From IMG/VR virus record IMGVR_UViG_3300042384_000288, positions 1-64,000 of that record: 64,000 nucleotides of DNA; one strand, 5' to 3'. The stretch comes from a virus. The translations under genes were made by a program, and so were the position numbers. Of this stretch, positions 408 through 43,276 are shown one piece after another. Numbering within the stretch: the first letter of the stretch is position 1; each line of letters starts with the position of its first letter. The notes beneath the pieces are model-generated. The model did no database searches, was not told the origin of the DNA, and worked only from the letters and a program-made list of their open reading frames with translations.

Positions 408-1355
408 TTAGTCGTTTGTTGCTAGTTTTACTGTTGTGTTTACAACTGCTGAACCTGTTGAAGTCCATCTTGCGTGGCTATTTGCAGCAAATTGTGTACC
501 TGCTGTGTATCCATCAATATCTGCCGGGAATAACAATGCTGTACGTGATTCAAGTTTACCGACTACATAACTACCGTTGTCAGAATCAAACGCTGTTAGT
601 GTCATTTCGCCTGCGGCTGTTGGGCCACCTGCAGCAACAACTTGCGCTACTGTTGGGCTGTTAACACCGTTAACACCTGTTGGAACTAAACGAACTACAT
701 CAGTACCATCAGCATTAGTTACGCGATAACGACGTGAACTGCGTTGACTAACGATATCAGCTTGTTTACCAATTGTGCCACCGGTAATCCGTGCGTTAGC
801 ACGGATTGTGTTAGCTGTAACTGTTGAAGCTGCTAATACTGCTGTTAATGAACCTGCAGATCCAATATCACCAAAGCTAATTAATGTTGTACTTGTTGCG
901 CTGGTATTAGCGGCACTCATTGTAACATTACCTGTGCCGATAGCTGTGATTGTAGTAGTTGCTGCAAATGCTGTATTTGCGGCCATACCGACAAATAAAC
1001 CTACAGTAGTTGAAACTGTTAGTACATTTGAACCACTAATTGCTCCGCCTGTGACTACTACGTTAGCCGGTTTAACTAAGGTAATTACCGGTGCAGTTGT
1101 GTAACCAGTACCTGCTGTTGTAACACTAGCTGTATCGATACGACCGTTAGCTGTACTAACTGCATCGACTGTCACTCTGGCAACTGTGCCACCGATTGGG
1201 CTAAGTGCCACTGTAGCTGTTAAACCTTGTGAGTAGTTTGTACCACGGTTTGTGTAAGTAATACTCGAAATACCTTCACCACCTGCAGCACTGTATGTTA
1301 AACCATCATTAACATTATCTGAACCAAAAAACTTTTTCTTAATAGGACGTCCCAT
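408..1355 (-). CDS. Virion structural protein (Thr/Ala/Gly-rich, possible head decoration or fibre)
   Basis: Likely start is MGRPIKKK at 1355 with an AAGGAG Shine-Dalgarno upstream. Contains the AGTGYTTAPVIT motif also seen in the giant baseplate protein; lies directly downstream of the capsid gene. Confidence 0.7.
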   Translation of the reverse strand: MGRPIKKKFFGSDNVNDGLTYSAAGGEGISSITYTNRGTNYSQGLTATVALSPIGGTVARVTVDAVSTANGRIDTASVTTAGTGYTTAPVITLVKPANVVVTGGAISGSNVLTVSTTVGLFVGMAANTAFAATTTITAIGTGNVTMSAANTSATSTTLISFGDIGSAGSLTAVLAASTVTANTIRANARITGGTIGKQADIVSQRSSRRYRVTNADGTDVVRLVPTGVNGVNSPTVAQVVAAGGPTAAGEMTLTAFDSDNGSYVVGKLESRTALLFPADIDGYTAGTQFAANSHARWTSTGSAVVNTTVKLATND

Positions 1356-1380
1356 TTGTTTTCTCCTTATATATTTAATT

Positions 1381-1432
1381 GTTCTACAATCTACGCGGTT
1401 GGGACCGCATAAACTCTCATTCAAGAGCGAAC
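1381..1432 (-). ncRNA. Structured 5' leader (three-way junction) of the 408..1355 gene
   Basis: GTTC/GAAC closing stem, CTCT/AGAG hairpin and TTTATGCGGT/ACCGCGTAGA hairpin (G-U pairs only on the minus strand). Begins after a 5-nt spacer downstream of an ATAAATA box. Confidence 0.55.
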
Positions 1433-11265: not shown

Positions 11266-11454
11266 ATGATACAGGGCTATGAACGTGATGTAAGAGCCTT
11301 AAAAGATGATGCGTTACGAATGAGTTGGTATATGCGTGGTGGTTTAAGCTACGACGATGCTATGATGTTAAGCGTAACTGAACGCGAACTGATAGGTAAG
11401 ATAATCAAAGATAATATGGAAACTACACAGAAATCAAGGCTGCCTTTTTTTTAG
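11266..11454 (+). CDS. gp51: gp51-like hub assembly peptide, probably made as a -1 frameshift extension of 10376..11239
   Basis: WYMRGGLSYDDAMMLSVTERE motif; frame is open back to 11221 across a T-TTT-TTC heptamer; no obvious SD before ATG 11266. Confidence 0.65.
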   Translation: MIQGYERDVRALKDDALRMSWYMRGGLSYDDAMMLSVTERELIGKIIKDNMETTQKSRLPFF

Positions 11455-11478
11455 ACGTAGTTGTTCTTAAAGTAAGTT

Positions 11479-11505
11479 AAAGGCTATATTCGTATAGTCT
11501 TTTTT
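11479..11505 (+). terminator. Intrinsic terminator after the chaperone pair
   Basis: AGGCTATA-TTCG-TATAGTCT followed by a T run. Confidence 0.8.
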
Positions 11506-11619
11506 ATTGACTAGTGTTTAAGATGTCTTAACGACATCTGCATTTATCGCTTGCGCTCAAATGCTTTTTCTTCTAATCTAATTAATCTAATTTACTTTGA
11601 ACTACTGTATGTTCTTCTA

Positions 11620-11990
11620 ATGCTTTATCCAGATGTAGGTCATACTTCACCTATCCGCTAGGCAAAGTATAAGAGACTCTTTATCCGAGTGCTACTATCA
11701 TACTAACTAAAAGAGATTGTATTCAATTACACGGAGGCGGTCAGCCGGTACCCCCTACTCTTGCTTCATCTGGCGGATGCTAATATAGCCGTAGTTAGCC
11801 AACTATATTAGTCACGTGGGTTGTATCTTTTTCACAGTGCCCACATCATTTGGTTTTTACACCTAATTTTATATTGTTTGATCGCTTTTTACAGCACAAT
11901 ACGGTTCTTGCCATCAAGTGTGTAGTCTAGTCTACACGTTCCATTCGGGGCCATTACGCGACCGAAATCTCCTCTTGATACAGCGCATGC
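11620..11990 (-). ncRNA. Large structured non-coding RNA of unknown class (~370 nt)
   Basis: ORF-free region with about ten nested stems, a long-range CCAGATG/CATCTGG helix and an 8-nt loop pseudoknot. Mismatches on + become G-U pairs on -. Confidence 0.75.
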
Positions 11991-12001
11991 TGCAGCAGTG
12001 G

Positions 12002-12436
12002 CTATTTTGTAATCTTTAAGTCTTTTACGGAATTTTTACCAAGTTTAAGTTGAATAATGCCATTGTAGTTGTTTTCACGCAACAATACATCTTCCTTAAA
12101 TTGATAATAGGCTTCCAAGTAATTAGTTTCGCCTCGGGAGTTGCACAGATGTACAATTTCACGAGTAAATTTCTCTTTGCCTAGTGCGCTAATGTCTTCC
12201 ATTAAACGCTGTGATGAGCCCCAATATGTTTTCCAGTCTGTTTCTATGACTTCGTGTCTTTTGTTTTTCTTGCCTTTTAGAGGTGGTCTCTTTTTGATAG
12301 TAATGAAGTATTTGCGGCCAATGTAATCATGACCATTTACTGTGTTGGTAATTCTATATATAAAGCCATAATAAGTTTGAATATCCTCGGAGTTAAATAT
12401 TGTGCCATTATAAGTCCAAGGATAATCGTATACCAT
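12002..12436 (-). CDS. Minimal GIY-YIG-family nuclease (catalytic domain only)
   Basis: GFIY...YIGRK, YWGSS, E (NYLE) and NYN motifs; 144 aa with no appended NUMOD/HTH domain. Confidence 0.8.
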   Translation of the reverse strand: MVYDYPWTYNGTIFNSEDIQTYYGFIYRITNTVNGHDYIGRKYFITIKKRPPLKGKKNKRHEVIETDWKTYWGSSQRLMEDISALGKEKFTREIVHLCNSRGETNYLEAYYQFKEDVLLRENNYNGIIQLKLGKNSVKDLKITK

Positions 12437-12444
12437 ACTGCTAT

Positions 12445-12630
12445 TTATTTCGCAGACATTGCATTTTTCTTCTCTTGGATTTCTGCTCTTCTTGCTTTGG
12501 CTAATTTAGCTAAATCACCTAATGCACCACGAGCACGTGCCGCTGCTGCTTTAACGCCTTTGTCTTCAAACTTTGCGCTTTCTTCTGTGTAAACAGCTAC
12601 CGCTGCTAAAATATCTTCATGAATTGACAT
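12445..12630 (-). CDS. Small basic histone H1-like (Hc1-type) protein
   Basis: KFEDKGVKAAAARAR...LAKLAKARRAEIQE motif; AAGGAG SD and TTAAATA box upstream. Confidence 0.7.
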   Translation of the reverse strand: MSIHEDILAAVAVYTEESAKFEDKGVKAAAARARGALGDLAKLAKARRAEIQEKKNAMSAK

Positions 12631-12675: not shown

Positions 12676-13356
12676 TTAAATTATTTTCTTACAGTTGATA
12701 CCATGCCACCTTGCATAATTTCCAATTGATACTGTTTTATCACAATATGGGCATGTTTTTGGAGGTAGTTTATTAATTCTGTCAGCTACCTCCGGTTTAC
12801 CCCACGATGGATTCTTTTCTTTCTTAAAACCAACGTTTGGGTTTCCTTTGAGAGCCTTGCTTAAATTTTTATTATGTTCGGCCGGCCTATTTTTATTATA
12901 TTCTTTTAACTTAATGCTTTTCTTTTGTCTAGTTTCTATAGAATCAGTATGTCCGAACAATGGAGATAATTCTCCTCTTTTTCCGTAAGATGGATTTTTA
13001 TCTCCTTGCCTTGCTAAACTTTTCTTTTGTTTAGTCGCTTCAGAATCCTTACTTCCAAGTCGATTCCCTGCATCAAAACAAGCATTGCTTCTATTATAGC
13101 TCAATGGATGATTTTTAGCATCTAACAGTATTAGGTACTTTGTTTCTAATTCTCTAATATACTTGGCTTCTCCTATAGCTAAAATTTCATAGCACCACTC
13201 ATTACGATTTTCTAAAATAAGAGGTTTAACAATAAGACTTGAGCAAATATATTTTTCATGACGGTTAGGATTCCATCCTTTTTGTGTTTTAGATCCAACA
13301 TACCACATTCCTGTGGGGAGGTGAGTCCATCTATATAGATAAGGTATTGTATTCAT
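12676..13356 (-). CDS. Free-standing homing endonuclease (GIY-YIG variant with NUMOD3-like repeats)
   Basis: PYLY...WYVGSK, ELE and SYN motifs; SEATKQKKS, DKNPSYGK, SIETRQK repeats; C-terminal CPYC..H..C. Likely start MNTIPY at 13356 with GGAG SD. Confidence 0.8.
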   Translation of the reverse strand: MNTIPYLYRWTHLPTGMWYVGSKTQKGWNPNRHEKYICSSLIVKPLILENRNEWCYEILAIGEAKYIRELETKYLILLDAKNHPLSYNRSNACFDAGNRLGSKDSEATKQKKSLARQGDKNPSYGKRGELSPLFGHTDSIETRQKKSIKLKEYNKNRPAEHNKNLSKALKGNPNVGFKKEKNPSWGKPEVADRINKLPPKTCPYCDKTVSIGNYARWHGINCKKII

Positions 13357-13364
13357 AAGATACT

Positions 13365-13427
13365 CCAGTAAAGTAATAAGGGCTATCTGTGTTACTGGCA
13401 CAGAAGGATGATCAAGTCCGTTCGCCC
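13365..13427 (-). ncRNA. Structured leader (three-way junction + pseudoknot onto SD) of the homing endonuclease gene
   Basis: GGGC/GCCC closing stem, GGA/TCC hairpin and CTGTG-CCAGTAA-CACAG hairpin; the loop is the exact complement of TTACTGG overlapping GGAG. Confidence 0.6.
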
Positions 13428-30568: not shown

Positions 30569-33500
30569 ATGGCTGTTAAAAAAACTTTAGATTTTCTTCC
30601 AACGATATTCAGATCTGACACGAATAATAAATTCTTGTCAGCAACAATGGATCAACTAGTTGAAGAACCCAATTTAACTAGACTGCACGGATATATAGGT
30701 AGAAAATTTGCTCCTACATATAAAGTAAACGATAGTTACATTTCTGAATCATCAGGGGATCGACAAAATTATCAACTTGAACCGGGTGTGGTCGTAAAAA
30801 ATAAACAAGATGAAATCACATTTTTTAGCAGCTATCCTGATCTTTTAAATAAAATTAGATATTATGGTGGTAACATTGACGATCATAGTCGTTTATTTGA
30901 TAGTCAATACTATAGCTTCGATCCACAAATTAGTTATGACAAGCTAGTTAATTTTAGTCAGTACTATTGGCTACCCGACGGACCCGATGCTGTGGAAGTT
31001 AATACCACGGGCATCAACTTAATTGAAACCTATATTGTTACTCGTGATGCGGCCACAAACAGCTACATTTTTAGATCGGAAGGAAAAATAGACTACAGCA
31101 TTACTCTTGCACGTGGCGGTACTTATCGATTCATTGTTGATCAACCGGGCTTTCCGTTTTGGATTCAAACAGAGTTAGGAGCCGACGGAAGAGTAACAGC
31201 AACACCTACTCTAAGTGCAAGAGATGTTCTAGGAGTCGAAAACAACGGTATAGATTCGGGTATTGTTACTTTCCGTGTACCATTAGACACAGCGCAAGAT
31301 AGATTTATTATTATGCAAACTGTGTATAATGTTGACTATGCAGTGCCTTTAGAATATACTAGTCTACAAAACAAATTTTTAAGTCAATTTTTGGCCAATT
31401 ATCCGCAATATTCTGGCATTACAGGAACACTTGATGGCAAATATCTAGTGTTTATATTACCAGAAGGGACTGTTAATCGAAGTCAGGCAGCATTTACGAA
31501 TGATGCAGTTGTTGACCCAGTAACTAATGCTATAATACCTGGATATGATGTGGGTTATGTTGTACCTTCTTCAATTCACTACGGAGTGTGGCAGGTTAAA
31601 TTTGTTGATGTTCCTGGGGTAGCTGAAAAGCTAATTCGTTTGGTACATATTCAAAATGTGGCTATAAATGAAAAAGTATACATTAGATACGGTGTACTTA
31701 ATGCTAACAAAGAATACTTTAAAGATTATGACGGGTTCTTCTACGAAGTTCCTTTACTATCAAGTATATTGGATACACTATACGTACAAGATGCGGCATC
31801 TGCTGGTATGTACGAGGCAGTGAAAATTATTAACTATGTTGGTTGGAATATCGATGTTGAAAATGATATTATAGGCAAAGTAAATTACACTAGCCCCAAT
31901 GGTGTGCAGTTTACCTCAGGATTAAAAATTGAATTTGGCTCTGACGTAATTCCTGCTAGCTATCAAAACAAACAGTATTATGCAGAAAACATTGGCGATT
32001 CTATTAGATTAGTCTGGGTAGATTTATTAGTCACACCTGAACCGTATCGAGCCGAGTTAGCATTAAATTATCCCTTAGGTATAGGAGAAAACTCATCTAA
32101 CGCAGAATACATAACTATTAATCGCGCTAGTAGAGACCTAAATGCGTGGAGTCGCAATAATCGTTGGTTTCATAGGGACGTTATTGTTGCCACAGCAACT
32201 TATAATAACACTGTTCCTCTAATAGATCAACGAAATCGTGCAAAACGACCAATCATTCAATTTGAATTAGATCTACAATTAGTCAACCAAGGAAGAATTG
32301 GTAAACAAGCAGTTGATATCTTAGATCTGTTTACGTTGGATCCTTTTACTGAATTACAAGGCACAGTTGCGTTAACAGCATTTGGCACGACTTTAACCAA
32401 CGGACTTCGTGTGCTGTTTGCAGGCGCAGTGGACCCTTTAGTAAAGAATAAAATTTATACTATAGAATTAGTACAATACGGATACGACACAGAGCTACGA
32501 CAACCCTCAGGTGAATTTTACGTTAATTTAGTAATTGCTGAAGATGGAGCAAGTGAAGCATATGACACTGTGGTAATTACACAGGGAAGATTCAAAGGAA
32601 CACAGTGGTATTTTGACGGTATTGACTGGAAAGAAAGTCAACAAAAAACAAATCTGCAACAAGCACCGTTATTTGACGTAGCAGATATCAATGGCAAAAG
32701 TTTCACTGAATTTGAACGTACTACCTTTGCAGGTACTAAGTTATTTGGTTATGCAGAATCGTCTGCAGCTGTACTTGACCCAGTACTACAACTACCATTA
32801 AGTTATAGAAACTTAGCTACTCAAGGAGAATTAGAGTTTAATACATTTTTTAATACTGATACCTTTAGTTATCTACTTGATGGAGTTTCTGTAACCAACG
32901 CTGTATCTACCGGATTCGTGCAAAGAGTTATCAGTAGAGATGTACTAAGTCCTAAGAATACCTGGAGAACGGTAGTAGAAGATACTAAACAATATCAACT
33001 GATCGGATATAATGCAGACGGAATCAACAGTGCATTTACCTTAGACGTAAGAACTGCTCCTAGCCAATCAGTGCCGTATTTAAAAGTCTTTAAAAATTAT
33101 GTTTATCAAACAACAGATCGATGGATACTAATTGACAACACTGTTCGATTAGTACAAAGTTTAAATTTTACTGGTGACGGAGTTACTGCATCTTTTACAG
33201 TGGATAACACTCTCAACGGTATAATAGTTAGTATAGATGGAGTCTTGCAAACACCGAGTCTATTTGGTATTGCGGGCAATGTAGTTACTTTTGAAGTACC
33301 TCCTTCAAAAAATAGTATAATACTAATTAGAACTATACAACTTCCTACTATAAATGATAAAATTGATATTTTAATCTATAGTAAACAACCTAGCGAGTTT
33401 GGAGTCTATCAAATTCCGTTGAACTTAGAATTAAATGCAAGAAATACCAACATCGAATCAGTAACTTTAGGTCAGATGCGCAATCATTTAGTGGCTATGT

Positions 33501-36500
33501 CTCAAAATAGTACTACGCTAATCGGTGACCCATTGGGTATTAGTAATCTTCGAGATGTTGAGATTAAACAACAAGGCGGTACTATTTTACAAAACAGTGC
33601 ACCTGTTCCGCATGCGAGTCTTTTCCTACTAGATGAAAAAGCTAATTTTATCAATGCTCTTCGTCTTGCTCAACGCGAATATAGCAAATTTAAAAACAAA
33701 TTTTTAGGATTAGCTACAACGTTATCGGGTATTAATCCTACTGATCCTGTTGCTAGTGTAGACTTAATTCTAACCAGTATTAACAGTATTAAGAATACTA
33801 CATTCCCGTGGTATTACAGCGATATGGTACCGTACGGCACATTAAAAAATACAATTACATACACGGTATTTAATACGTTGGATAGTGATTACGAAATTAC
33901 AAATGTTTTTAATGATCAAAATCTAAGCAATCAAGCGGTATTAGTTTATCTAAATGATGTACAATTAACTAAAAATATTGATTATATATTCTTACAGGAT
34001 CGTCCCGCAGTTAGATTTATTGGCGCTACCTTAGAGGGTTTAGAAGTCGATGATATTATTCAGTTAGTTGAATACACTAATACTGATGGTAACTACATTC
34101 CAGAGACTCCAACAAAATTAGGATTATGGCCAAAATATGTTCCTCAGATATTTTTAGATGATACCTATAGACAACCGATTAATGTTCTCCAAGGACACGA
34201 CGGTAGTATTACTCCAACGTTTGGCGATTACCGAGATAATTTTTTATTAGAATTAGAGAAACGTATCTACAATAACATAAAAGTATTAGATACTGCTTAT
34301 GAAAATGTTGTTGACGTAGTTCCTGGAAAATTTAGAGAAACTGACTACAATCTGACAGAAATGACACAGATATTATCTCAAGGATTTTTAAATTGGGTAG
34401 GCAACAACAAAATTGATTTTAGCTCAAACGATTCATTTAGACCCAACGATGCTTTTACTTGGAACTATAATGCGTTTCCTGACAGAGTCGACGGTGAAAT
34501 ACTGCCAGGCAGCTGGCGTGCTTGTTATCAATATTTTTATGATACTTTCCGCCCTCACTTAACACCTTGGGAAATGTTAGGATTTTCTGAAAAACCCGAT
34601 TGGTGGGAGGAATTCTACGGACCGGCACCATATACCGGCAGCAACAAATTGCTATGGGACGACCTAGAAGCTGGACGTATTCGCGAAGGCAAGAGATCAT
34701 TGATTGATCTAGGGCTGGGATTAGGTATAGATCCACGTTATGCTCGTCCGGGATTATCTGCATTAATACCAGTAGATGAAAACGGACAATTATTAAGCCC
34801 AGTGGCAGCAATAACTGGAGCATATAAATCTAATAGAGCAGGAGGTAGCTGGACTGTAGGTCAATATGGGCCTGTAGAGTATGCTTGGCGCACAAGTAGT
34901 GACTATCCATTTGCAATGCAAAGGGCTGCGGCCTTGGCTAAACCAGGCAGATATTTTGGTTTATTAGCAGATGCGTTTAATTACTATTACGACGAGACGT
35001 TAGATCAATATTTAACAAGAGGTACTAATAGACATATAACTCAATTTGACATAAATTACAACGGTAACTCTATCAACGGTCGTGTCTACAGAAGTGCAGG
35101 CTGGATAAACTGGGTAGCTGATTATTTGGTCAATCAAGGAATAAATCCTGCATCTGAAATACTTACAAAAATACAAAATTATGAAATTAAACTGTCATAT
35201 AAAACTGCAGGCTTTACCGATCAAAAATATCTTCAGATATTAGCAGAACAAGTAAGTCCAAGCAGTTTTGGTGACAGTATTGCAATACCTAACGAAAATT
35301 ATCAAGTTCATTTGTATAAATCGACTCCTGTTAACACGCTTCGTTATAGTGCAGTTATTGTTGAAAAAACATCCAATGGATATACTGTCAGAGGATATGA
35401 TTTAAATAATCCATTCTTTGTAATAATACCTAGTCAGGCAAATAATAATGCTACTAGAATCAATGTACTGAATAGTAGTGCTTCTATCTATAATAATTTT
35501 CAAAATCTTAGATTAACTGTGCCTTACGGTTATGAATTTACTACACAACAACAAATAGTTGACTTTCTGATTGGATATGAAAGAAATCTAAAAGGCAGAG
35601 GATTCACATTCGAAGAATTAGACAATCAACTAGGACAGGTTAAGAGTTTTAGATTAAGCGCAGAAGAATTTTTGTTTTGGGCACAACAGGGATGGAAGGC
35701 AGGTAGTATATTAGTGTTAAGCCCGGTAATTAATACTGTTCGAGCTACAACTATAAGCGGAATTACAGATGGAATCACGGATAGTCAATACGGTAGCAAA
35801 GTATTAGATGTTAATTTCCAAATGGTTAAAAATAATAATTATGATGTAATGCGATCAGCAACAGAATTTAAACTAACACTAACTGGTGACGGTGCAGTTG
35901 TGGGTTATTTAGAAGTTGATGTAGTACAATATGAACATGTATTAATCTTTGACAATAATACTGTGTTCAACGATGTTATTTATGAACCAGAGTCCGGTAG
36001 TCGTCAGTACAGACTTAGATTAATTGGACAAAAAACAGGTGCCTGGGATGGTAGTCTGTATGCTCCGGGATTTATATATAATTCGGGTGTAGTTGATTTA
36101 TGGAATCAAGGTAAGGATTATCTCAAAGGTGATCTAGTAGAATTTAAAAATCAATATTATGTTGCATTGGAAAATATTATTGCAGCTCCAGAATTTCAAT
36201 TTGGATTGTGGCAAATTATTGCGTCTAGTGAAATTAAAAAAGGACTTTTACCAAACTTTAGTACGCTGGCCAGTGCTGCAGAAGACTACTACGACAGTTA
36301 CGGTAGTATCAAAGATAAAAACCAAATACAACAAAGTCATAGCCTAATAGGATTCAAACCAAGACAGTATTTGAGTGATCTGGGACTAAGTGAAACTAGT
36401 CAAATTGAATTTTACAAGGGATTTATCAATCAAAAAGGTAGTGCAAATGCAGTAAACCAACTGCTTAATGCAGTGTTTAACAACTTAAACAGTAACATTG

Positions 36501-39500
36501 AATTCTATGAAGAATGGGCAGTGCGAGTAGGTGAATACGGAGCACTACAAAGTAATCCTTATGTGGAAATACCGTTAGCTGAAAATGAATACTCAGCTAA
36601 TCCTGCAATTGCACGTTTTGTTGCTGGCGCACAGTTTAACGACGGCGACGGTATATCGGTATTTAACGAAACTCAATTGTACAAATCCGAAGGAGTGTTT
36701 ACTGCTAGTATTGCATTAAATCGTACAAGTGCTAGTAACTATGACAACGATATTACCACTGCAGGTTACGTGAATATCAATGATGTTGACCTAACAATAT
36801 TCGATCTAGCCAACTACCAAAACATAGCGGGCGAAAATAGTCTAGATCGAATTGGTAGTGGGTTTACCATCTGGTGCGCCAAAGATTTCCAACAACGCTG
36901 GAACGTTTATCGTGTTACAGAAACAAGAAATACAGTACTAAGTGTAACTAATAGTTTAGATGGATTTATTACATTTACAACAAAATTGCCACACAAATTA
37001 ATTTTAGACGAAATATTTGTTATTAAGAGTTTTGATCCGGCATTTGATGGTTTTTATCAAGTGCGCACTGTTGTAAGTCTAACAGAGATTATGGTTCAAT
37101 ATACCGGAGATACTGCAGATCTAACTACGTTAGAAGGTGATGGACTACTGTTTGTTTTAGACAGTCTACGTTTCCAATACATGGAAGATGCACGTAAATA
37201 TCTTCCGCCGCACGGTTGGCAAGTGGGAGAAAAGATTTGGATTGATGAAGATGCAGCTACTAACTTAATACAAGGGCAACCTATTGCAACTCCAAATAAC
37301 ACATGGAAAGTTTATGAAAAAACGAGACCATGGAACGTAACTCAAGATTTAGATCGCATATCTACATTTGACAATGCCAACGGATTTGGTACTAGTATCA
37401 AAATGACGCAGGATAATCGAGTGATTGTCAGTGGAGCACCTTATCAAAATCTCGGAGTAGGTATAGTAAATACATTCTTGAAAGATAGTCAAGACAATTT
37501 CAATGAGGGGTTTGTTGTTGCTCCGGATACTGGCAACGCCACTGTTACCACAGCTAGCTTTGGATCAGTTGTAGATTTAGCACAGCTGAGAGGAATTACG
37601 TATCTAGCAGTAGGTGCCCCTCTAAGCAGCATCAATTCTAATACTAACATTGGGTTAGTGTATATCTATAAGAAAGACTCCAATGTAGCTGGATTTAGCA
37701 AAGCACAAGTGTTAGTAGGTATAGCAGGCCAAGATCAATTCGGTACAAGTTTAGCATTTAATCAAGATGGTAGTTGGTTATATGTAGGCGGAGTTGGAAA
37801 TAATGGTAAGGTTAGCTTATATGGTTTAAAACGTTTTGTTGAAAAAAATACCGGAATAGTAGTAGCTAGCTTAGGTAGTTCGACTGTAACAGTTCCGTTT
37901 GTTAGAGACCCTAATGTAAATTCAACTGATGCTAACAGTTTATTGATAACGTCATTTGGCAGAACATATATTCCGGTTATTGATTATACCGTTAATGGGC
38001 AAACAATAACGTTTAAAAATGCCTTTGCGGCAAATACAGAAATTACAGTAAGTCAAGGTCCGTACTATGCAATGTTAAATAACGGAGTGCCGTTGACACA
38101 TCCATTAGGTACAACTGGTACACAATATGGGTACGCACTGTCTAGCAGTTTTGACGGAGCACAACTTGCTGTAGGAGCTCCTAATGACACTGTGCAAGGC
38201 AAACTAGGCGCTGGTAGTGTTTGGGCATACGATCGATTAATTGAAGCGTTTAAGGCAGATGGTGGTATAGATTATGTAACTCAAAGCAATATAGCTGAAG
38301 TATACCGTGTTACAATCGAAGATGTTGAAGTAAATGATTACAAAATTATCGGAAGTAATACAGTAAGATTCCTTACTCCTCCACCGATTGGCAAAGTTAT
38401 TTTTGTTGAAACTAATCAATTTGTTTTATTAGAACGTATTACAGGCAAAGATGAGTTCATTCAAGCCAATGCTGCATTAGGTACTAGTTTAACAATTTGT
38501 TCAAACAATTGTGCGATTTATGTTGGTGCTCCATACTATGATAATGGAACAGCATACAACACTGGTGCAGTGTATAAATTCCACAATAGAGGTCGTTTAT
38601 ACGGAACCAATACTGGTACTACAGTAAACCCAACATTTACGCCAGGCGATAGTATTCGTTTAGATAACTTTGAAGTAACGGCAACAGGAACTACATTAGA
38701 TGATCTAGTTAATGATATTAATAATGCAGGTATTTTGGGTGTTAGTGCATTGAACGATCAAGGCAGACTAAGATTAAATTCTGATAAAACTGTAGCTAAA
38801 AACTTATTGCGTATGCTAGCAGGAACTGGTACAATATATGTTGATGCTGGTTTAGAAATTTTTGCACAAATGCAACTTATTACTAATCCATTTGATACTC
38901 CCGGTGAATACTTTGGTACTAAAGTTAAATTAGCAGCCAATGCCACCATGTTGGTAATTGGCAGTGGTCGCGGGACAACCAAAACATTCACTACATTAGA
39001 TAATGAAACAACAAATTTTGACTTTAACGCAACAGTATTCCGTGACGATATAGTAGGTAGTGGAAGTGTATACATTTACGAACTATACGATGATCCTCGA
39101 GATGCAGTTGAATATCCGGGTCGATATCAATACTGTCAACAGCTTAGTGTTATAAATCCACTACATCCTGATGACCCTGATTATAATCCGCAAGAAGGAT
39201 TAAATCCGGGCGACCAGTTTGGCTATGCGTTAGATATTGAAGGCACGTACATTATTATTAGTTCGCTAAAAGATAGTACTGCAGGCGCTAATGCAGGTGA
39301 TGTCTATGTGTTTAATAATCCTACAATGACTCGAGGATGGAATTTAATACATTACCAAGAAGAAACTGTAGATCCTGACAGTGTAAGTAGAATGTACTTG
39401 TACGATAGTACTGCTAGCACAATTTTAAGTAACCTACAATTTATCGATCCTGCCAAAGGACGTATCTTAGGGCAAGCAGAACAAGAAATTACATATAAAA

Positions 39501-42500
39501 CAGAATATGATCCTGCTCTGTATAATGCGGGAACAAATAACACAACCGACATTAATTCTCAACTCTATTGGGGAGCGAATCACGTTGGGCAAGTATGGTG
39601 GGATTTAAGTACTGTGCGTTTCATTGATTACGAACAGGGCACGTTAACATATCGTAGTATTAACTGGGGAGGAGTTTTTCCTGGCTCATCAATTGACGTT
39701 TACGAATGGGTAGAAAGTGATGTTATTCCTAGTCAATATGTTGAAAATGACGGAAACGGGATTCCTAAATTCGAAAATGACGGTGCGTATGTAGAAGAAA
39801 TATTTGTAGATCCTACAAGTAATATCATTTCTACTAGATATTATTTCTGGGTCAGAGACAAAACTATAGTAGATCCAAATAATCCTACACGTCGATTACC
39901 GATTCAATCAGTGGCTAGTATTATCGAAAATCCTAAAGCTCAAGGTATAGCCTACGGTGCGATCGTACGCAATGATGCAGTAATATTATATAATGTAACT
40001 CCGTTCTTAACAGCAGACGATACAGTATTGCATATCGATTATCAGAAAACTATTAACTCTAATATTATTCACAGTGAATATGAACTTATACAAAAAGGTA
40101 ATGCAAGTGCAATACTGCCTGCTAAAATAATCAATAAATTAGTAGATAGTTTAAGTGGTGTTGATGTTGAGGGTAACAGCGTACCAGATCCAACGCTGAG
40201 TCCTGCAGAACAATACGGTATAGGTGTACGCCCAAGACAAAGTATGTTTGTTAATCGTTTAGTTGCAGTAGCACAGTTAGTATCTTTTGTAAATGCAGTT
40301 TTTCAAGAAACTCCAATTACAGGCAATGCCGATCTTAGTGCTTTAAGTGCTGAGGATCCGCTACCTACTGACAAATTAGGCGAATACAATTTAAGAGTAG
40401 CAACTGATATTGAGTTAGCATACATCGATAGAGAACCATTGTCTGTGGGAACTATTGCGCTGGTCGAAAACGACACAACGCAGAGCGGATTGTGGGTATT
40501 ATATAGATTAGACGAAAACAGACAATGGGTAATTGATCGTGTTCAAAGTTACAAAAATAGTCTATACTGGGATTACGTTGACTGGTACGCTGTTGGATAT
40601 GATTCCTCAACGAAACCTACTTTTAGTGTGGACTCGGTTGTTGATGCATTAAAACAACCAGTTGCTGCAAATGATCTAATCAAAGTTAACAATGTAGGAA
40701 ACGGTCAGTGGCGCTTATTTTTAGTAGCGTTTAACGGAGCATTGATTACAGTTGGTATTCAAAATGGCACTATTCAACTTAATAGTGTGTTAGGTAACTA
40801 CGAAGACAATGGAATTGGTTATGGTAATCAAGGATTTGATCTAAGTAGGCATGACCAAAGTCCTAATACTGAAATCCGTGGTATTATTATTGCTATTATT
40901 GAAACAATTTTTGTTGGAGATCTAGCTGGTAAAGTGAATGAATTGTTCTTTACCCTAATTAATTATCTGTTAACTGAACAACCTTATGTAGACTGGTTAT
41001 TTAAGAGCAGTTTTATTAGTGTGAAACATCAATTGAGAACATTGAGTCAATTCCCTAGCTATGTTCGAGATAATCAAACATACTACCAAGATTATATCAA
41101 CGAAGTTAAACCTTATAGAACTAAAATTCGAGAATATTTAATTAACTATACTGGATCCGACGAATTTGAGGGTAGTATTACTGACTTTGATTTACCTGCA
41201 TATTATGACAGATCTTTAGGGCTGTTCCGTAGCCCAAGCGGTGAACAAGTGGTAGCTGACTTAGCAAGATGGCAGACACAACCGTATAATGAGTGGTATA
41301 ATAATCGTGCATTAGAAATTAGTAGTATTGTAGTAAGCACCGCAGGTGCAGGATACACTACTCCACCAGTAGTTACTATTACTGGAGGTGGTGGCGTAGG
41401 TGCCACAGCCGAAGCTGTTATTGATGGCAACAACGGATCAGTGATCGGTATTACTGTAACAAACAGCGGTGGTGGATATTCAACCACCCCTACTATCAAT
41501 CTTAACGGTAGTGCAACTACTACTGCTGAAGCTGTTCCGGTTATGGCTAATAGACTCATAAGAAGTTTTGACACTCGTATTAAATTTGATAGAATAACTT
41601 ATCATACTACAATAAAAGAGTGGGCAGCTAACACCGCATATCGTGCAGGAGACATAGTCGCGCACTCGCAATTAGATGGCAATAAGTCTATTAGAAAAGC
41701 ATATACTGTAAATGTAGACATTATCACAGGTACAACTTTTGTAGCAACAGACTACACAGTATACGGTGCCGGCGAATTTAGTACAGCCAATGATCGCATA
41801 TTAGGTTATTACGAGCCAAGAGATACAATGCCGGCTATAGAAACAATTACACGATCTATAGATGTAGTGCAAGATGTTACTAACGCAAATATTATGTTTG
41901 TGACAGCTTTACCAGGTCTACGTAGAGATATGACTATCAGCGGAAGTGGTGCTAATGCAGCAACTATCACTGAAGTGGTATCAGGTGTGTTATTATTAAG
42001 CGGAAACATAACAGCTAATATTGGTAATTACCTAACACAAACAAGATTTTCAAATACATATATCAATACTGGAAATGTTAGCACTTCAAAATGGGCTAAT
42101 GTTGTTGCTACAGCTAATGTACAAATTACTGCAGAATTCCCTACAACATATGGCAACATAACTAATGCATATCGTGTAAGTTCTTATATTACTGAGCACG
42201 AATTTGATTTTGCTAATGTTGTTACTATAGTTGATACAACAACATTACCAGAGTCAACAGTAACTATTACATCAGTTTACCCTGTGGCCAACGACGTAAT
42301 CGCGGTACAACTTGATAGAGAACAAACTCAAGATTCGGGCAACATAATAACTGCAACTTACAAAAATCTAAGTCAATTAGTATCTGATTTAGAGTATCCT
42401 GGAGTTCAATTACAAGGAAGTCAATTTGTACAAGGACCAGGATACGATGCACCGTTTGGCAGCGTATTTGACAATATAGATTATAACAGTGACGGAACTC

Positions 42501-43276
42501 CGTTGCTAAGTGAAGCATCATTAGATTCTGTAATCCGTAGTACATATTCGGACTTGTTATTAGGCACCCGTGCGGAAGATATTAATATAGAAGGTGGAGA
42601 ATATGTTGATACGTACTCAAGCCATGCGCCAGAAGAACTAGTACCGGGGCGAGTATATGACGCATTGGATATGCAGATATATACAAAAATTAATGGTAAT
42701 ACAGAAGTTTTGGGATATCGCGTATTTACAAACATGCTAGACTATGTAACGTATACACGAATAGCAGATGCGCATTCAACAACACTAACGCAGGTATTAC
42801 TACCAACAGATACAGAAATTCATGTAGATGATGCTACCGTTTTAATGGAGCCAAATCCAGCAGCAAACTTACCCGGTATAGTGTTTATTGGTTGCGAAAG
42901 AATTGTCTACTATAGAATTAACAGAACTACTAACGTAATTGGCCTTATTCGTCGAGGCACACACGGTACGGCAATTATGCCAATACATGGCATAGGTGCA
43001 CGTGTAATTGACAGTGGACAAACACAGCATATACCTACAATAACAGTTGGCACAAATAACGCTAATGTTAGTGTTTGGTTTAACAGTGGAGCAAACGTTG
43101 CCACCGACGGTACTGGCTTCGAAGGTTCGACAACTGAGGCTGTTAATTTCTTAAAAGCCGCTACCGCAGGAAATGTACAAATAGCAACCGTTTCTGAGAT
43201 GATTATCACCGAGGATGCGGTAAATACATTAACGACTGAAGACGGCCAGATACTCATTGAGGAAGACCAAGCATGA
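30569..43276 (+). CDS. Giant (4235 aa) baseplate/virion structural protein with FG-GAP-like propeller
   Basis: Uninterrupted 12.7-kb ORF after gp6; [13 protein letters not shown] wedge-like motif, [11 protein letters not shown] repeats and seven FG..GAP-like repeats. Confidence 0.8.

What the first reader, a model, noticed from the sequence alone, without database searches (positions are those of the whole stretch)
11620..11990. Large ornate non-coding RNA with a pseudoknot in the only long ORF-free gap
Seen on the minus strand: ATCAAG/CTTGAT (11979-74/11918-13) enclosing TTCGG/CCGAA and GTGTAG/CTACAC; TATTGT/ACAATA; recurring purine loops GCT-GTAAAA-AGC, GGT-GTAAAA-ACC and CT-GTGAAAA-AG; GTGGG/CCCAC; a CTAATATAGTTG/CGGCTATATTAG stem whose loop GCTAACTA (11799-92) can pair with TAGTTAGT (11709-02); and a long-range CCAGATG/CATCTGG helix (11773-67/11635-29) enclosing AAGAG/CTCTT, GGGGG/CCTCC, CGG-CTGA-CCG, ACTC/GAGT and ATACTTTGCCTA/TAGGTGAAGTAT. 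Several + strand mismatches are G-U pairs on -, which points to selection on an RNA of that strand. I cannot match it to tRNA, tmRNA, RNase P or group I/II introns.
Basis: partly seen in the sequence, partly recalled or inferred. Interest (0 to 1): 0.9.

Follow-up and report, generated by a model that had tools for sequence, protein, structure and literature searches.

The report
Large twin-box RNA of jumbo phages
The gene-free stretch behind a small nuclease gene of this uncultured T4-like giant phage encodes a real, roughly 470-base, doubly knotted non-coding RNA that carries the same 7-letter word twice; its job is unknown, but relatives occur in culturable E. coli, Cronobacter and Agrobacterium phages, so it can now be tested.

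Summary
Real feature. The minus strand of 11993-11521 encodes a structured RNA. It begins right after the stop codon of a 144-aa GIY-YIG gene, at the end of the gp47-gp46 operon of an IMG/VR jumbo phage.

About 170 related phage contigs carry it on the same strand. In the window's own clade, 107 proposed pairs are 93.5% paired (about 40% in slid controls), and 45 show compensatory changes.

- **Not conserved:** its long-range CCAGATG/CATCTGG helix, ACTC/GAGT and CT/AG. A second pseudoknot (tetraloop to junction) takes the place of the long-range helix.
- **Rfam:** no match to the window. The 5' domain of a sister clade is the orphan Polynucleobacter-1 motif (RF01718), so the family is partly catalogued.
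- **Most unusual trait:** two 7-nt boxes (GGAUAAA, 11686-11680 and 11630-11624) are identical in 92 of 94 relatives although they take 13 different sequences. I found no complementary partner.
- **Cultured relatives:** the same core and twin boxes occur in Rak2-like phages (4-5 copies per genome), and the core in Atu_ph07.

Function is unknown. The link to the nuclease is unproven. This scan found the same family earlier on other DNA.

The parts
12002..12436 (-). 144-aa catalytic-domain-only GIY-YIG nuclease gene (context). Its stop codon lies 9 nt before the first RNA helix.
   Evidence: Pfam PF19835 SegE_GIY-YIG, E 8e-38; phrog_447. Directly upstream on the same strand in 147 of 174 RNA loci. 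GIY/YIG, Glu and Asn motifs are conserved.
11980..11993 (-). 5' hairpin H0 (GCAG / CUGU)
   Evidence: 100% paired, one compensatory change (helix 1).
11913..11979 (-). Three-way junction: H1 AUCAAG/CUUGAU enclosing H2 UUCGG/CCGAA and H3 GUGUAG/CUACAC
   Evidence: helices 2-4: 98-100% paired; 13 of 17 pairs compensatory.
11872..11901 (-). Hairpin UAUUGU..ACAAUA with GCU-GUAAAA-AGC; a sub-clade insertion
   Evidence: Present in only 3 of 14 sequences and invariant. Untested.
11852..11863 (-). Hairpin GGU-GUAAAA-ACC
   Evidence: helix 7: 2 of 3 pairs compensatory.
11816..11844 (-). Hairpin GUGGG/CCCAC with inner UG/CA pairs and a conserved A-rich loop (..GAAAAAGAUACAA)
   Evidence: helices 8-9.
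11780..11811 (-). P7 12-bp hairpin. Its loop 11799-11792 (GCUAACUA) is the 5' strand of pseudoknot 1.
   Evidence: helices 10-11. Loop and partner covary across clades: UUAGCGU/ACGCUAA, CUAGUAU/AUACUAG, UUAUUAU/AUAAUAA.
11770..11772 (-). Junction strand CAG: 5' strand of pseudoknot 2, pairing with tetraloop bases 11744-11742
   Evidence: 100% paired with 3 of 3 pairs compensatory in the window's clade (helix 12). 4 bp, 100% paired and 3 compensatory in clade C. Same in Rak2-like copies.
11711..11762 (-). Invariant core closed by P8 AAGAG/CUCUU. Contains P9 GGGGG/CCUCC with the 3-nt bulge UAC (11750-11748), hairpin CGG-CUGA-CCG (11747-11738) and variable hairpin P9b (11731-11718).
   Evidence: The 19-mer GGTACCGGNNNACCGCCTC hits at least 119 IMG/VR contigs, and all 115 analysed (new loci only) carry the element. 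P8 covaries strongly in clade C. P9 and P9b.
11702..11709 (-). UAGUUAGU: 3' strand of pseudoknot 1
11680..11686 (-). Box 1, GGAUAAA (5' flank ACUC)
   Evidence: Identical to box 2 in 92 of 94 non-redundant relatives; 13 box sequences.
11642..11670 (-). P10 hairpin AUACUUUGCCUA / UAGGUGAAGUAU, between the boxes
   Evidence: (95% paired).
11624..11630 (-). Box 2, GGAUAAA (5' flank AUCU)
11521..11564 (-). Two 3' hairpins: TH1 GCAUUU-GAGC-GCAA-GCGAU-AAAUGC (tandem G-A, GNRA loop) and TH2 AGAUGUC..GACAUCU. They follow a variable A-rich linker.
   Evidence: Conserved in all three clades, with stems that covary. 78-100% paired in the window's clade (helices 18-21).

Best explanation
**Shown**
- A ~470-nt non-coding RNA is made from the minus strand as the last part of the gp47-gp46-...-GIY-YIG transcription unit.
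- It belongs to a large family of RNAs found in giant T4-like phages.
- Its fold, 5' to 3':
  1. a clade-specific 5' domain (here a three-way junction);
  2. several hairpins;
  3. hairpin P7, whose loop forms pseudoknot 1;
  4. an almost invariant core: helix P9 with a UAC bulge and a CGG-NNNA-CCG hairpin, whose loop forms pseudoknot 2 with the upstream junction;
  5. two identical 7-nt boxes flanking hairpin P10;
  6. two 3' hairpins.

**Inferred**
- The RNA acts in trans as a folded particle.
- The double-pseudoknot core is a rigid scaffold that displays the two boxes as unpaired, equivalent reading heads.
- One kind of partner reads both boxes by sequence. It could be two copies of a complementary nucleic-acid word, or the two halves of a symmetric target or protein complex.
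- The box would therefore be a re-programmable specificity element, and the rest of the RNA the constant machinery.
- The partner and the biological role (for example competition between phages, or control of a phage or host nucleic acid) are not known.
For: **Family and strand**
- Iterated nhmmer finds the element in 58 of 80 gp46 loci, always on the gp46 strand. It also finds it in all 115 analysed loci hit by the core 19-mer.

**Structure**
- Window's clade: 93.5% of cells paired against 33-44% in slid controls. 45 pairs have changes on both sides, and 0 of 500 shuffles reach this.
- Clade C core plus pseudoknot 2: 97.7% paired.
- Strand asymmetry in folding energy.

**Boxes**
- Mutual information of 0.94-0.98 bits between equal positions of the two boxes. 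No other core column correlates.
- Identical in 92 of 94 sequences with 13 states. Even within the window's 14-sequence clade there are 6 states.
- All 8 combinations of the three variable positions occur. That needs repeated double changes.
- The flanks stay different (ACUC against AUCU), which argues against gene conversion.

**Generality**
- Rak2-like cultured phages carry 4-5 copies each of an element with the same junction/P8/P9/bulge/loop topology and a covarying pseudoknot 2 (100% paired).
- Those copies have twin boxes CGUCAG or CGUCAA at the same places, behind the same AAUCU flank.
- In Klebsiella phage Kae01 one copy has each type, and the boxes match within each copy.
Against: - No partner was found. 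No complement (G-U allowed) sits at any consistent place in the RNA. No strict complement with a shared context lies within about 6 kb either side.
- Only three of the seven box positions vary within this family (R, R, W). That looks more like a constrained structural motif than a free guide.
- The counts of parallel changes (18-24 per position) rest on a tree that recombination among phages can inflate.
- I obtained no expression data, so the ends, abundance and trans action of the RNA are inferred.
- Homology with the Rak2-like and Atu_ph07 elements rests on shared architecture and a 17-nt core. It has no significant sequence or covariance-model score.
Confidence: 0.5

Rival explanations
1. 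The RNA is the partner of the GIY-YIG nuclease encoded just upstream. It would either guide the nuclease to DNA through the boxes or hold it in check.
For: - The gene is directly upstream on the same strand in 147 of 174 loci. 14 of the other 27 loci lack enough upstream sequence to tell.
- Only 23-33 nt separate the stop codon from the RNA in the window's clade, so the two are co-transcribed.
- The protein is a bare catalytic domain with a lysine-rich insert and no DNA-binding domain, and its catalytic motifs are kept.
Against: - Gene order is conserved throughout this phage group. The convergent baseplate genes downstream are equally constant neighbours, so adjacency alone says little.
- About 10% of loci have a 0.9-1 kb insert between gene and RNA.
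- PA5oct, Phosso and Atu_ph07 have no homologue of the protein, yet Atu_ph07 has two core-bearing elements.
- Rak2-like phages carry 4-5 copies in gene-free gaps. The gp46-locus copies in GAP32 and UE-S1 lie next to an oppositely oriented EndoVII gene, not a GIY-YIG gene.
Confidence: 0.15
2. The RNA is a self-assembling or catalytic particle, like the phage-borne ornate RNAs ROOL and GOLLD or like OLE. The boxes would serve symmetric contacts between copies.
For: - Its size, the near-invariant unpaired nucleotides and two pseudoknots.
- Box 2 with its flank reads AUCURGAU, which is self-complementary.
- ROOL, GOLLD and OLE form homo-oligomers (PMC12286853).
Against: - Box 1 with its flank (ACUCRGAU) is not self-complementary.
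- Symmetric contacts predict covariation within a box, not identity between two boxes.
- No Rfam similarity to those families.
Confidence: 0.15
3. The RNA is a conformational switch. The two boxes compete for one complementary strand, so both must match it.
For: Competing for one strand is the simplest known reason for two segments to stay identical. In GAP32 box 1 overlaps the 3' strand of a local hairpin.
Against: - No column in the core or in the full-length clade alignments covaries in Watson-Crick fashion with the variable box positions at anything near the box-to-box signal.
- No complementary 7-mer was found.
- The GAP32 hairpin is not conserved (64% paired).
Confidence: 0.1
4. The RNA is a cis-acting 3' untranslated element (stabiliser, processing site, terminator complex or riboswitch-like regulator) of the operon. 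RF01718 was first tentatively classed as cis-regulatory.
For: - It lies at the 3' end of an operon and ends in hairpins.
- The table in Weinberg et al. 2010 marks Polynucleobacter-1 as possibly cis-regulatory.
Against: - About 470 nt with two pseudoknots and an invariant core is far more than known 3' stabilisers need.
- It sits downstream of genes, not upstream.
- Related elements stand alone in gene-free gaps, in several copies per genome.
Confidence: 0.07
5. The element works as DNA: a replication origin or recombination site, with direct repeats flanking a palindrome.
For: Two 7-bp direct repeats flank an inverted repeat between convergent transcription units. Another first-reader note proposed an origin.
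Against: - G-U pairs make the fold strand-specific.
- Compensatory changes also maintain pseudoknots, which DNA cruciforms do not need.
Confidence: 0.03

Closest known systems
Polynucleobacter-1 RNA motif (Rfam RF01718; Weinberg et al. 2010, PMC2864571)
   Same: Sister-clade RNAs share the window's whole 3' part (P7, both pseudoknots, core, boxes, 3' hairpins). Their 5' 141 nt match RF01718 at 101-119 bits. Both 5' domains contain a three-way junction with two hairpins. The environment is the same (fresh water).
   Different: The window's own 5' domain does not match the model, even at E up to 10. RF01718 covers less than a third of the RNA and includes neither pseudoknot, nor the invariant core, nor the boxes. 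No function is known, and the only paper in the held library that mentions it is the 2010 survey.
ROOL, GOLLD and OLE: large ornate bacterial and phage RNAs (Rfam; cryo-EM in PMC12286853)
   Same: Several hundred nucleotides long, many helices and pseudoknots, often phage-borne, function unknown.
   Different: No sequence or structure match in Rfam. No tRNA genes nearby. Oligomerisation is untested. Twin identical boxes are not a described feature of those RNAs, to my knowledge.
Repeated unannotated elements of Rak2-like jumbo phages (GAP32, UE-S1/121Q-like, fHe-Yen9-04, pEa_SNUABM_12, fENko-Kae01) and two gene-free loci of Agrobacterium phage Atu_ph07
   Same: - The junction ACCGUYRY, P8, P9 with a 3-nt bulge, and a hairpin loop forming a covarying pseudoknot with the junction.
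- Twin boxes behind the AAUCU flank.
- One copy sits at the same place, after gp46.
   Different: - 4-5 copies per genome instead of one.
- The bulge is AAA rather than UAC, and the boxes are CGUCAG or CGUCAA.
- There is no GIY-YIG neighbour.
- Similarity is below the reach of nhmmer and of my covariance model, so homology is inferred from architecture.
- None is annotated as RNA. UE-S1 lists only a 'repeat_region'.
Group I introns carrying GIY-YIG homing endonuclease genes (T4 td / I-TevI type)
   Same: A GIY-YIG gene next to a structured, pseudoknotted RNA in a T4-like phage.
   Different: No Rfam intron match. No interrupted host gene and no downstream exon, because the next genes converge. 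The nuclease gene is almost universally present rather than sporadic.

Membership tests
Polynucleobacter-1 (RF01718) | cmscan score at or above the gathering score (37 bits) | tested here: not met
   No hit in the window at gathering or at E up to 10 on 11400-12100. Relatives of clade C score 101-119 bits.
Polynucleobacter-1 (RF01718) | Consensus architecture: 5' hairpins, then a long-range helix enclosing two hairpins | tested here: inconclusive
   The window has one 5' hairpin and a three-way junction of the same topology, but no sequence similarity to the model consensus.
Twin-box large phage RNA (uncatalogued; defined here) | Invariant core GGUACCGG-NNNA-CCGCCUC with a 3-nt bulge | tested here: met
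   Window 11752-11734. The pattern hits at least 119 viral contigs, and all 115 analysed carry the element.
Twin-box large phage RNA (uncatalogued; defined here) | Pseudoknot 2 between the tetraloop and the upstream junction | tested here: met
   CAG 11772-11770 with CUG 11744-11742. 100% paired and compensatory.
Twin-box large phage RNA (uncatalogued; defined here) | Pseudoknot 1 between the P7 loop and the strand following P8 | tested here: met
   11799-11792 with 11709-11702.
Twin-box large phage RNA (uncatalogued; defined here) | Two identical 7-nt boxes flanking hairpin P10, behind flanks ACUC and AUCU | tested here: met
   GGAUAAA at 11686-11680 and at 11630-11624.
Twin-box large phage RNA (uncatalogued; defined here) | Match to a covariance model built from other members | tested here: met
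   Model R1, built from clade C only, scores the window at 38.3 bits, E 1.7e-7, full length.
ROOL / GOLLD / OLE / HEARO / raiA | Rfam covariance-model match | tested here: not met
   No hit even at E up to 10.
tRNA, tmRNA, RNase P RNA | ARAGORN or Rfam detection | tested here: not met
Group I intron with homing endonuclease | Intron core match and flanking exons of an interrupted gene | tested here: not met
   No Rfam hit. The genes downstream are convergent.
RNA-guided nuclease system | Physical and functional dependence of the neighbouring nuclease on the RNA | not testable with these tools
   Only synteny is available, and related RNAs exist without the gene.

The most novel reading that the evidence does not exclude
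The two boxes are a duplicated, re-programmable guide. The constant double-pseudoknot scaffold would present two identical 7-nt heads to a repeated or palindromic nucleic-acid target. This would recruit or license a phage factor, possibly the co-transcribed domain-less GIY-YIG nuclease in this clade. That would make it a new kind of RNA-programmed recognition system in giant phages.
Probability: 0.12. Interest if true: 0.95.

Novelty: new variant of a known kind. Interest (0 to 1): 0.78.

Why it matters
- **A catalogued orphan grows.** A 141-nt Rfam orphan motif turns out to be one optional domain of a much larger RNA. That RNA is widespread in abundant freshwater giant phages.
- **It becomes testable.** By architecture, the family also occurs in culturable jumbo phages of E. 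coli, Salmonella, Klebsiella, Cronobacter, Erwinia, Yersinia and Agrobacterium. A function can therefore be sought at the bench.
- **The covariation pattern is unusual.** Two segments are kept identical rather than complementary, across more than a dozen different words and in a distant branch of the family. I know of no description of this in structured RNAs. It points either to a sequence-programmable reading element or to an unfamiliar structural principle.
- **Annotation.** These gaps should not be filled with small hypothetical ORFs, as several phage records have done.

Tried and rejected
- **Rfam**, at gathering and at E up to 10, on the window: nothing relevant.
- **GenBank phages.** blastn at 'near' and 'distant' settings with the window's RNA, its locus, and a clade C member: no match.
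- **Core 19-mer in bacterial genomes.** 120 hits, mostly in high-GC genomes. None carries the element by nhmmer, so they are chance matches.
- **Partner for the boxes.**
  - Complement with G-U allowed, inside the RNA.
  - Strict complement within the fetched loci, by position and by shared context.
  - Mutual information against every aligned column.
  - All negative.
  - My early idea that a 5' motif GGUCYGGA in clade B pairs with the boxes was wrong. That motif is part of a local hairpin.
- **Other readings of the boxes, rejected:**
  - CsrA-type GGA sites: GGA is lost in the AGAU variants.
  - Hammerhead reading of the first 3' hairpin: the 'UGAUGA' is part of a covarying stem.
  - Translational bypass as in T4 gene 60 (matched RGA codon plus stop): there is no ORF, and a stop follows the landing site.
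  - Target-site duplication or gene conversion: the flanks stay different and the insertion is orthologous.
- **PA5oct.** Its RNA-seq-defined ncRNA001 and ncRNA002 (PMC7318152) show no similarity by eye. Model R1 finds nothing in PA5oct, Phosso or Atu_ph07.
- **Public sequencing runs.** I therefore have no read evidence and could not test whether the stretch between the boxes is skipped in RNA.
- **Solved structures.** No relative of the nuclease by sequence.

Full report
**Setting**

The window is the first 64 kb of a 111-kb IMG/VR virus record. The genes around the finding are T4-like:
- a gp47-like phosphoesterase and a gp46-like SMC nuclease subunit on the minus strand;
- a NUMOD3 homing-endonuclease gene;
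- a 61-aa Hc1-like gene;
- a 144-aa GIY-YIG gene (12436-12002);
- convergent baseplate genes on the plus strand.

By gp46, the closest cultured relatives are the jumbo phages PA5oct (50% aa identity), Sinorhizobium phage Phosso, Agrobacterium phage Atu_ph07 and the Rak2-like group.

- The minus strand folds 3.2 sd better than shuffles. The plus strand does not.
- Using gp46 as bait I fetched 80 related viral loci. Iterated nhmmer found the element in 58 of them, always downstream of gp46 and on its strand.
- The most conserved 19-mer (GGTACCGGNNNACCGCCTC) hit at least 119 more viral contigs. All 115 analysed carry the element.
- The same pattern in bacterial genomes gave only chance hits.
- The sequences fall into three main clades of 65 (C), 39 (B) and 11 (A, with the window).

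**Structure**

I aligned 14 full-length sequences of the window's clade and counted pairs for a structure of 107 pairs:
- 93.5% of cells are paired, against 33-44% when partners are slid.
- 45 pairs change on both sides, against 8-13 in the slid controls.
- 0 of 500 shuffles reach this.

The pseudoknot is clearest between clades. The loop and its partner read:

| Clade or sequence | Loop / partner |
|---|---|
| Window | GCUAACUA / UAGUUAGU |
| Other clades | UUAGCGU / ACGCUAA |
| Other clades | CUAGUAU / AUACUAG |
| Other clades | UUAUUAU / AUAAUAA |
| Other clades | CUAUUC / GAAUAG |

Three proposed helices fail:
- ACTC/GAGT is 56% paired.
- CT/AG is 39% paired.
- The long-range CCAGATG/CATCTGG is 78% paired in clade A only. 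In clades B and C the 5' strand reads CCGUUGAU or CCGUUGU and cannot pair with the conserved AUCUGGAU.

What that junction strand does instead is pair with the tetraloop of the invariant hairpin. This is pseudoknot 2:
- CAG with CUG in the window;
- UUGU with ACAA, UCAU with AUGA, and UCG with CGA elsewhere.
- It is 100% paired, with compensatory changes in every clade tested.

There is a 5' hairpin right after the nuclease stop codon. After a variable A-rich linker come two conserved 3' hairpins whose stems covary.

**The twin boxes**

Two 7-nt segments lie 57-70 nt apart on either side of P10. They are identical in 92 of 94 non-redundant sequences, although three positions vary (RGAURAW) and rarer forms occur (GCAUAAU, ACAUGAA, AGACGAA).
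- Mutual information between equal positions is 0.94-0.98 bits. Nothing else in the core correlates.
- The four bases before each box stay different (ACUC against AUCU), so this is not plain gene conversion.
- All eight combinations of the three variable sites exist. A crossover within a box cannot create matched pairs, so repeated double changes are required.
- A parsimony count on a tree of the rest of the RNA gives 18-24 changes per site. Recombination can inflate that, so 12 (13 states minus one) is the safe floor.
- I found no complementary partner in the RNA or within about 6 kb.

**Relation to known families**

Rfam has no match to the window. The 5' 141 nt of clade C relatives match Polynucleobacter-1 (RF01718) at 101-119 bits. 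Clades A and B do not match. That motif was listed in 2010 as a possible cis-regulatory RNA of Burkholderiales and fresh water, and it has no follow-up in the held library. The family is therefore partly catalogued, but as a fragment. A survey of IMG/VR structured RNAs reported candidates of only 29-151 nt (PMC10690425).

**The nuclease neighbour**

The GIY-YIG gene sits directly upstream in 147 of 174 loci, and most of the rest are truncated contigs.
- It is a bare catalytic domain with its motifs intact.
- Co-transcription is very likely.
- A functional link is not shown. Gene order is conserved on both sides anyway, about 10% of loci have an inserted gene between the two, and related RNAs occur without the gene.

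**Wider family**

- **Atu_ph07.** A two-mismatch search for the core found two paralogous gene-free elements. One of them has CUC-AUGAAU and UCU-AUGAAU flanking a long hairpin.
- **Rak2-like phages.** The gap after gp46 in GAP32 and UE-S1 holds an element that recurs 4-5 times per genome in 62 Rak2-like phage records.
- **Shared core.** Nine copies aligned show the same junction/P8/P9/bulge/loop core. Pseudoknot 2, P8 and P9 are 100% paired, and 11 of those 15 pairs are compensatory.
- **Shared boxes.** These copies carry boxes CGUCAG or CGUCAA behind the same AAUCU flank. In Klebsiella phage Kae01 the two types coexist in different copies, each matched within its own molecule. The constraint therefore acts within one RNA.
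- **Limit.** This homology rests on architecture. nhmmer and my clade C covariance model do not reach these sequences.

**Reading**

That this is a real, large, trans-acting structured RNA of a broad jumbo-phage family is well supported. How it works is inference. My preferred model is a constant scaffold that presents two identical reading heads to one kind of partner.

Earlier notes of this scan on other genomes reached similar conclusions. I reached the twin-box observation on my own before reading those notes. The Rfam link came from my own search, run alongside them. The enterobacterial lead I tested here after reading them.

Noticed in passing
window 1353-1428 (-): A match to the Rfam cis-regulatory motif freshwater-2 (RF02980): 57.8 bits against a gathering score of 49.9.
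   Followed up: no
window 12676-13401 (-) and 12445-12630 (-): A NUMOD3 homing-endonuclease gene and a 61-aa Hc1 histone-like gene lie between gp46 and the GIY-YIG gene. The gp46-to-GIY-YIG distance varies by about 1.5 to 4 kb among relatives, and Hc1 is found in only a few. This stretch is an insertion hot spot.
   Followed up: partly
window 11570-11600 (-): The A-rich linker before the 3' hairpins holds a tandem UUAGAUUA-AUUAGAUUAG, conserved in the window's clade as UUAGAUUAGAAGAAAAAG. No role is assigned.
   Followed up: no
window 30569-43276 (+): A single 4235-aa open reading frame.
   Followed up: no
L331:1150-1760 (-) and L327:1150-1850 (-) (Atu_ph07 near 490.1 kb and 383.3 kb): Two paralogous structured elements sit in unannotated gaps. 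Both share CCGUUGUUGCAG...GGUACAGGAYAACCGCC and several 'hairpin + AUGAA' motifs. Only the first shows clear twin boxes.
   Followed up: partly
L337:7651-8456 and L338:7666-8512; paralogues L339-L350, L354-L367: Rak2-like jumbo phages carry 4-5 copies per genome of a ~500-nt gene-free element, all on the + strand in GAP32 and UE-S1. Some records annotate small hypothetical ORFs or a 'repeat_region' over them.
   Followed up: partly
L320:9017-11207 (PA5oct) and L321:9410-10425 (Phosso): The equivalent place after gp46 in PA5oct and Phosso also has long stretches with no ORFs or only tiny ones. Neither my model nor the core pattern matches there.
   Followed up: partly
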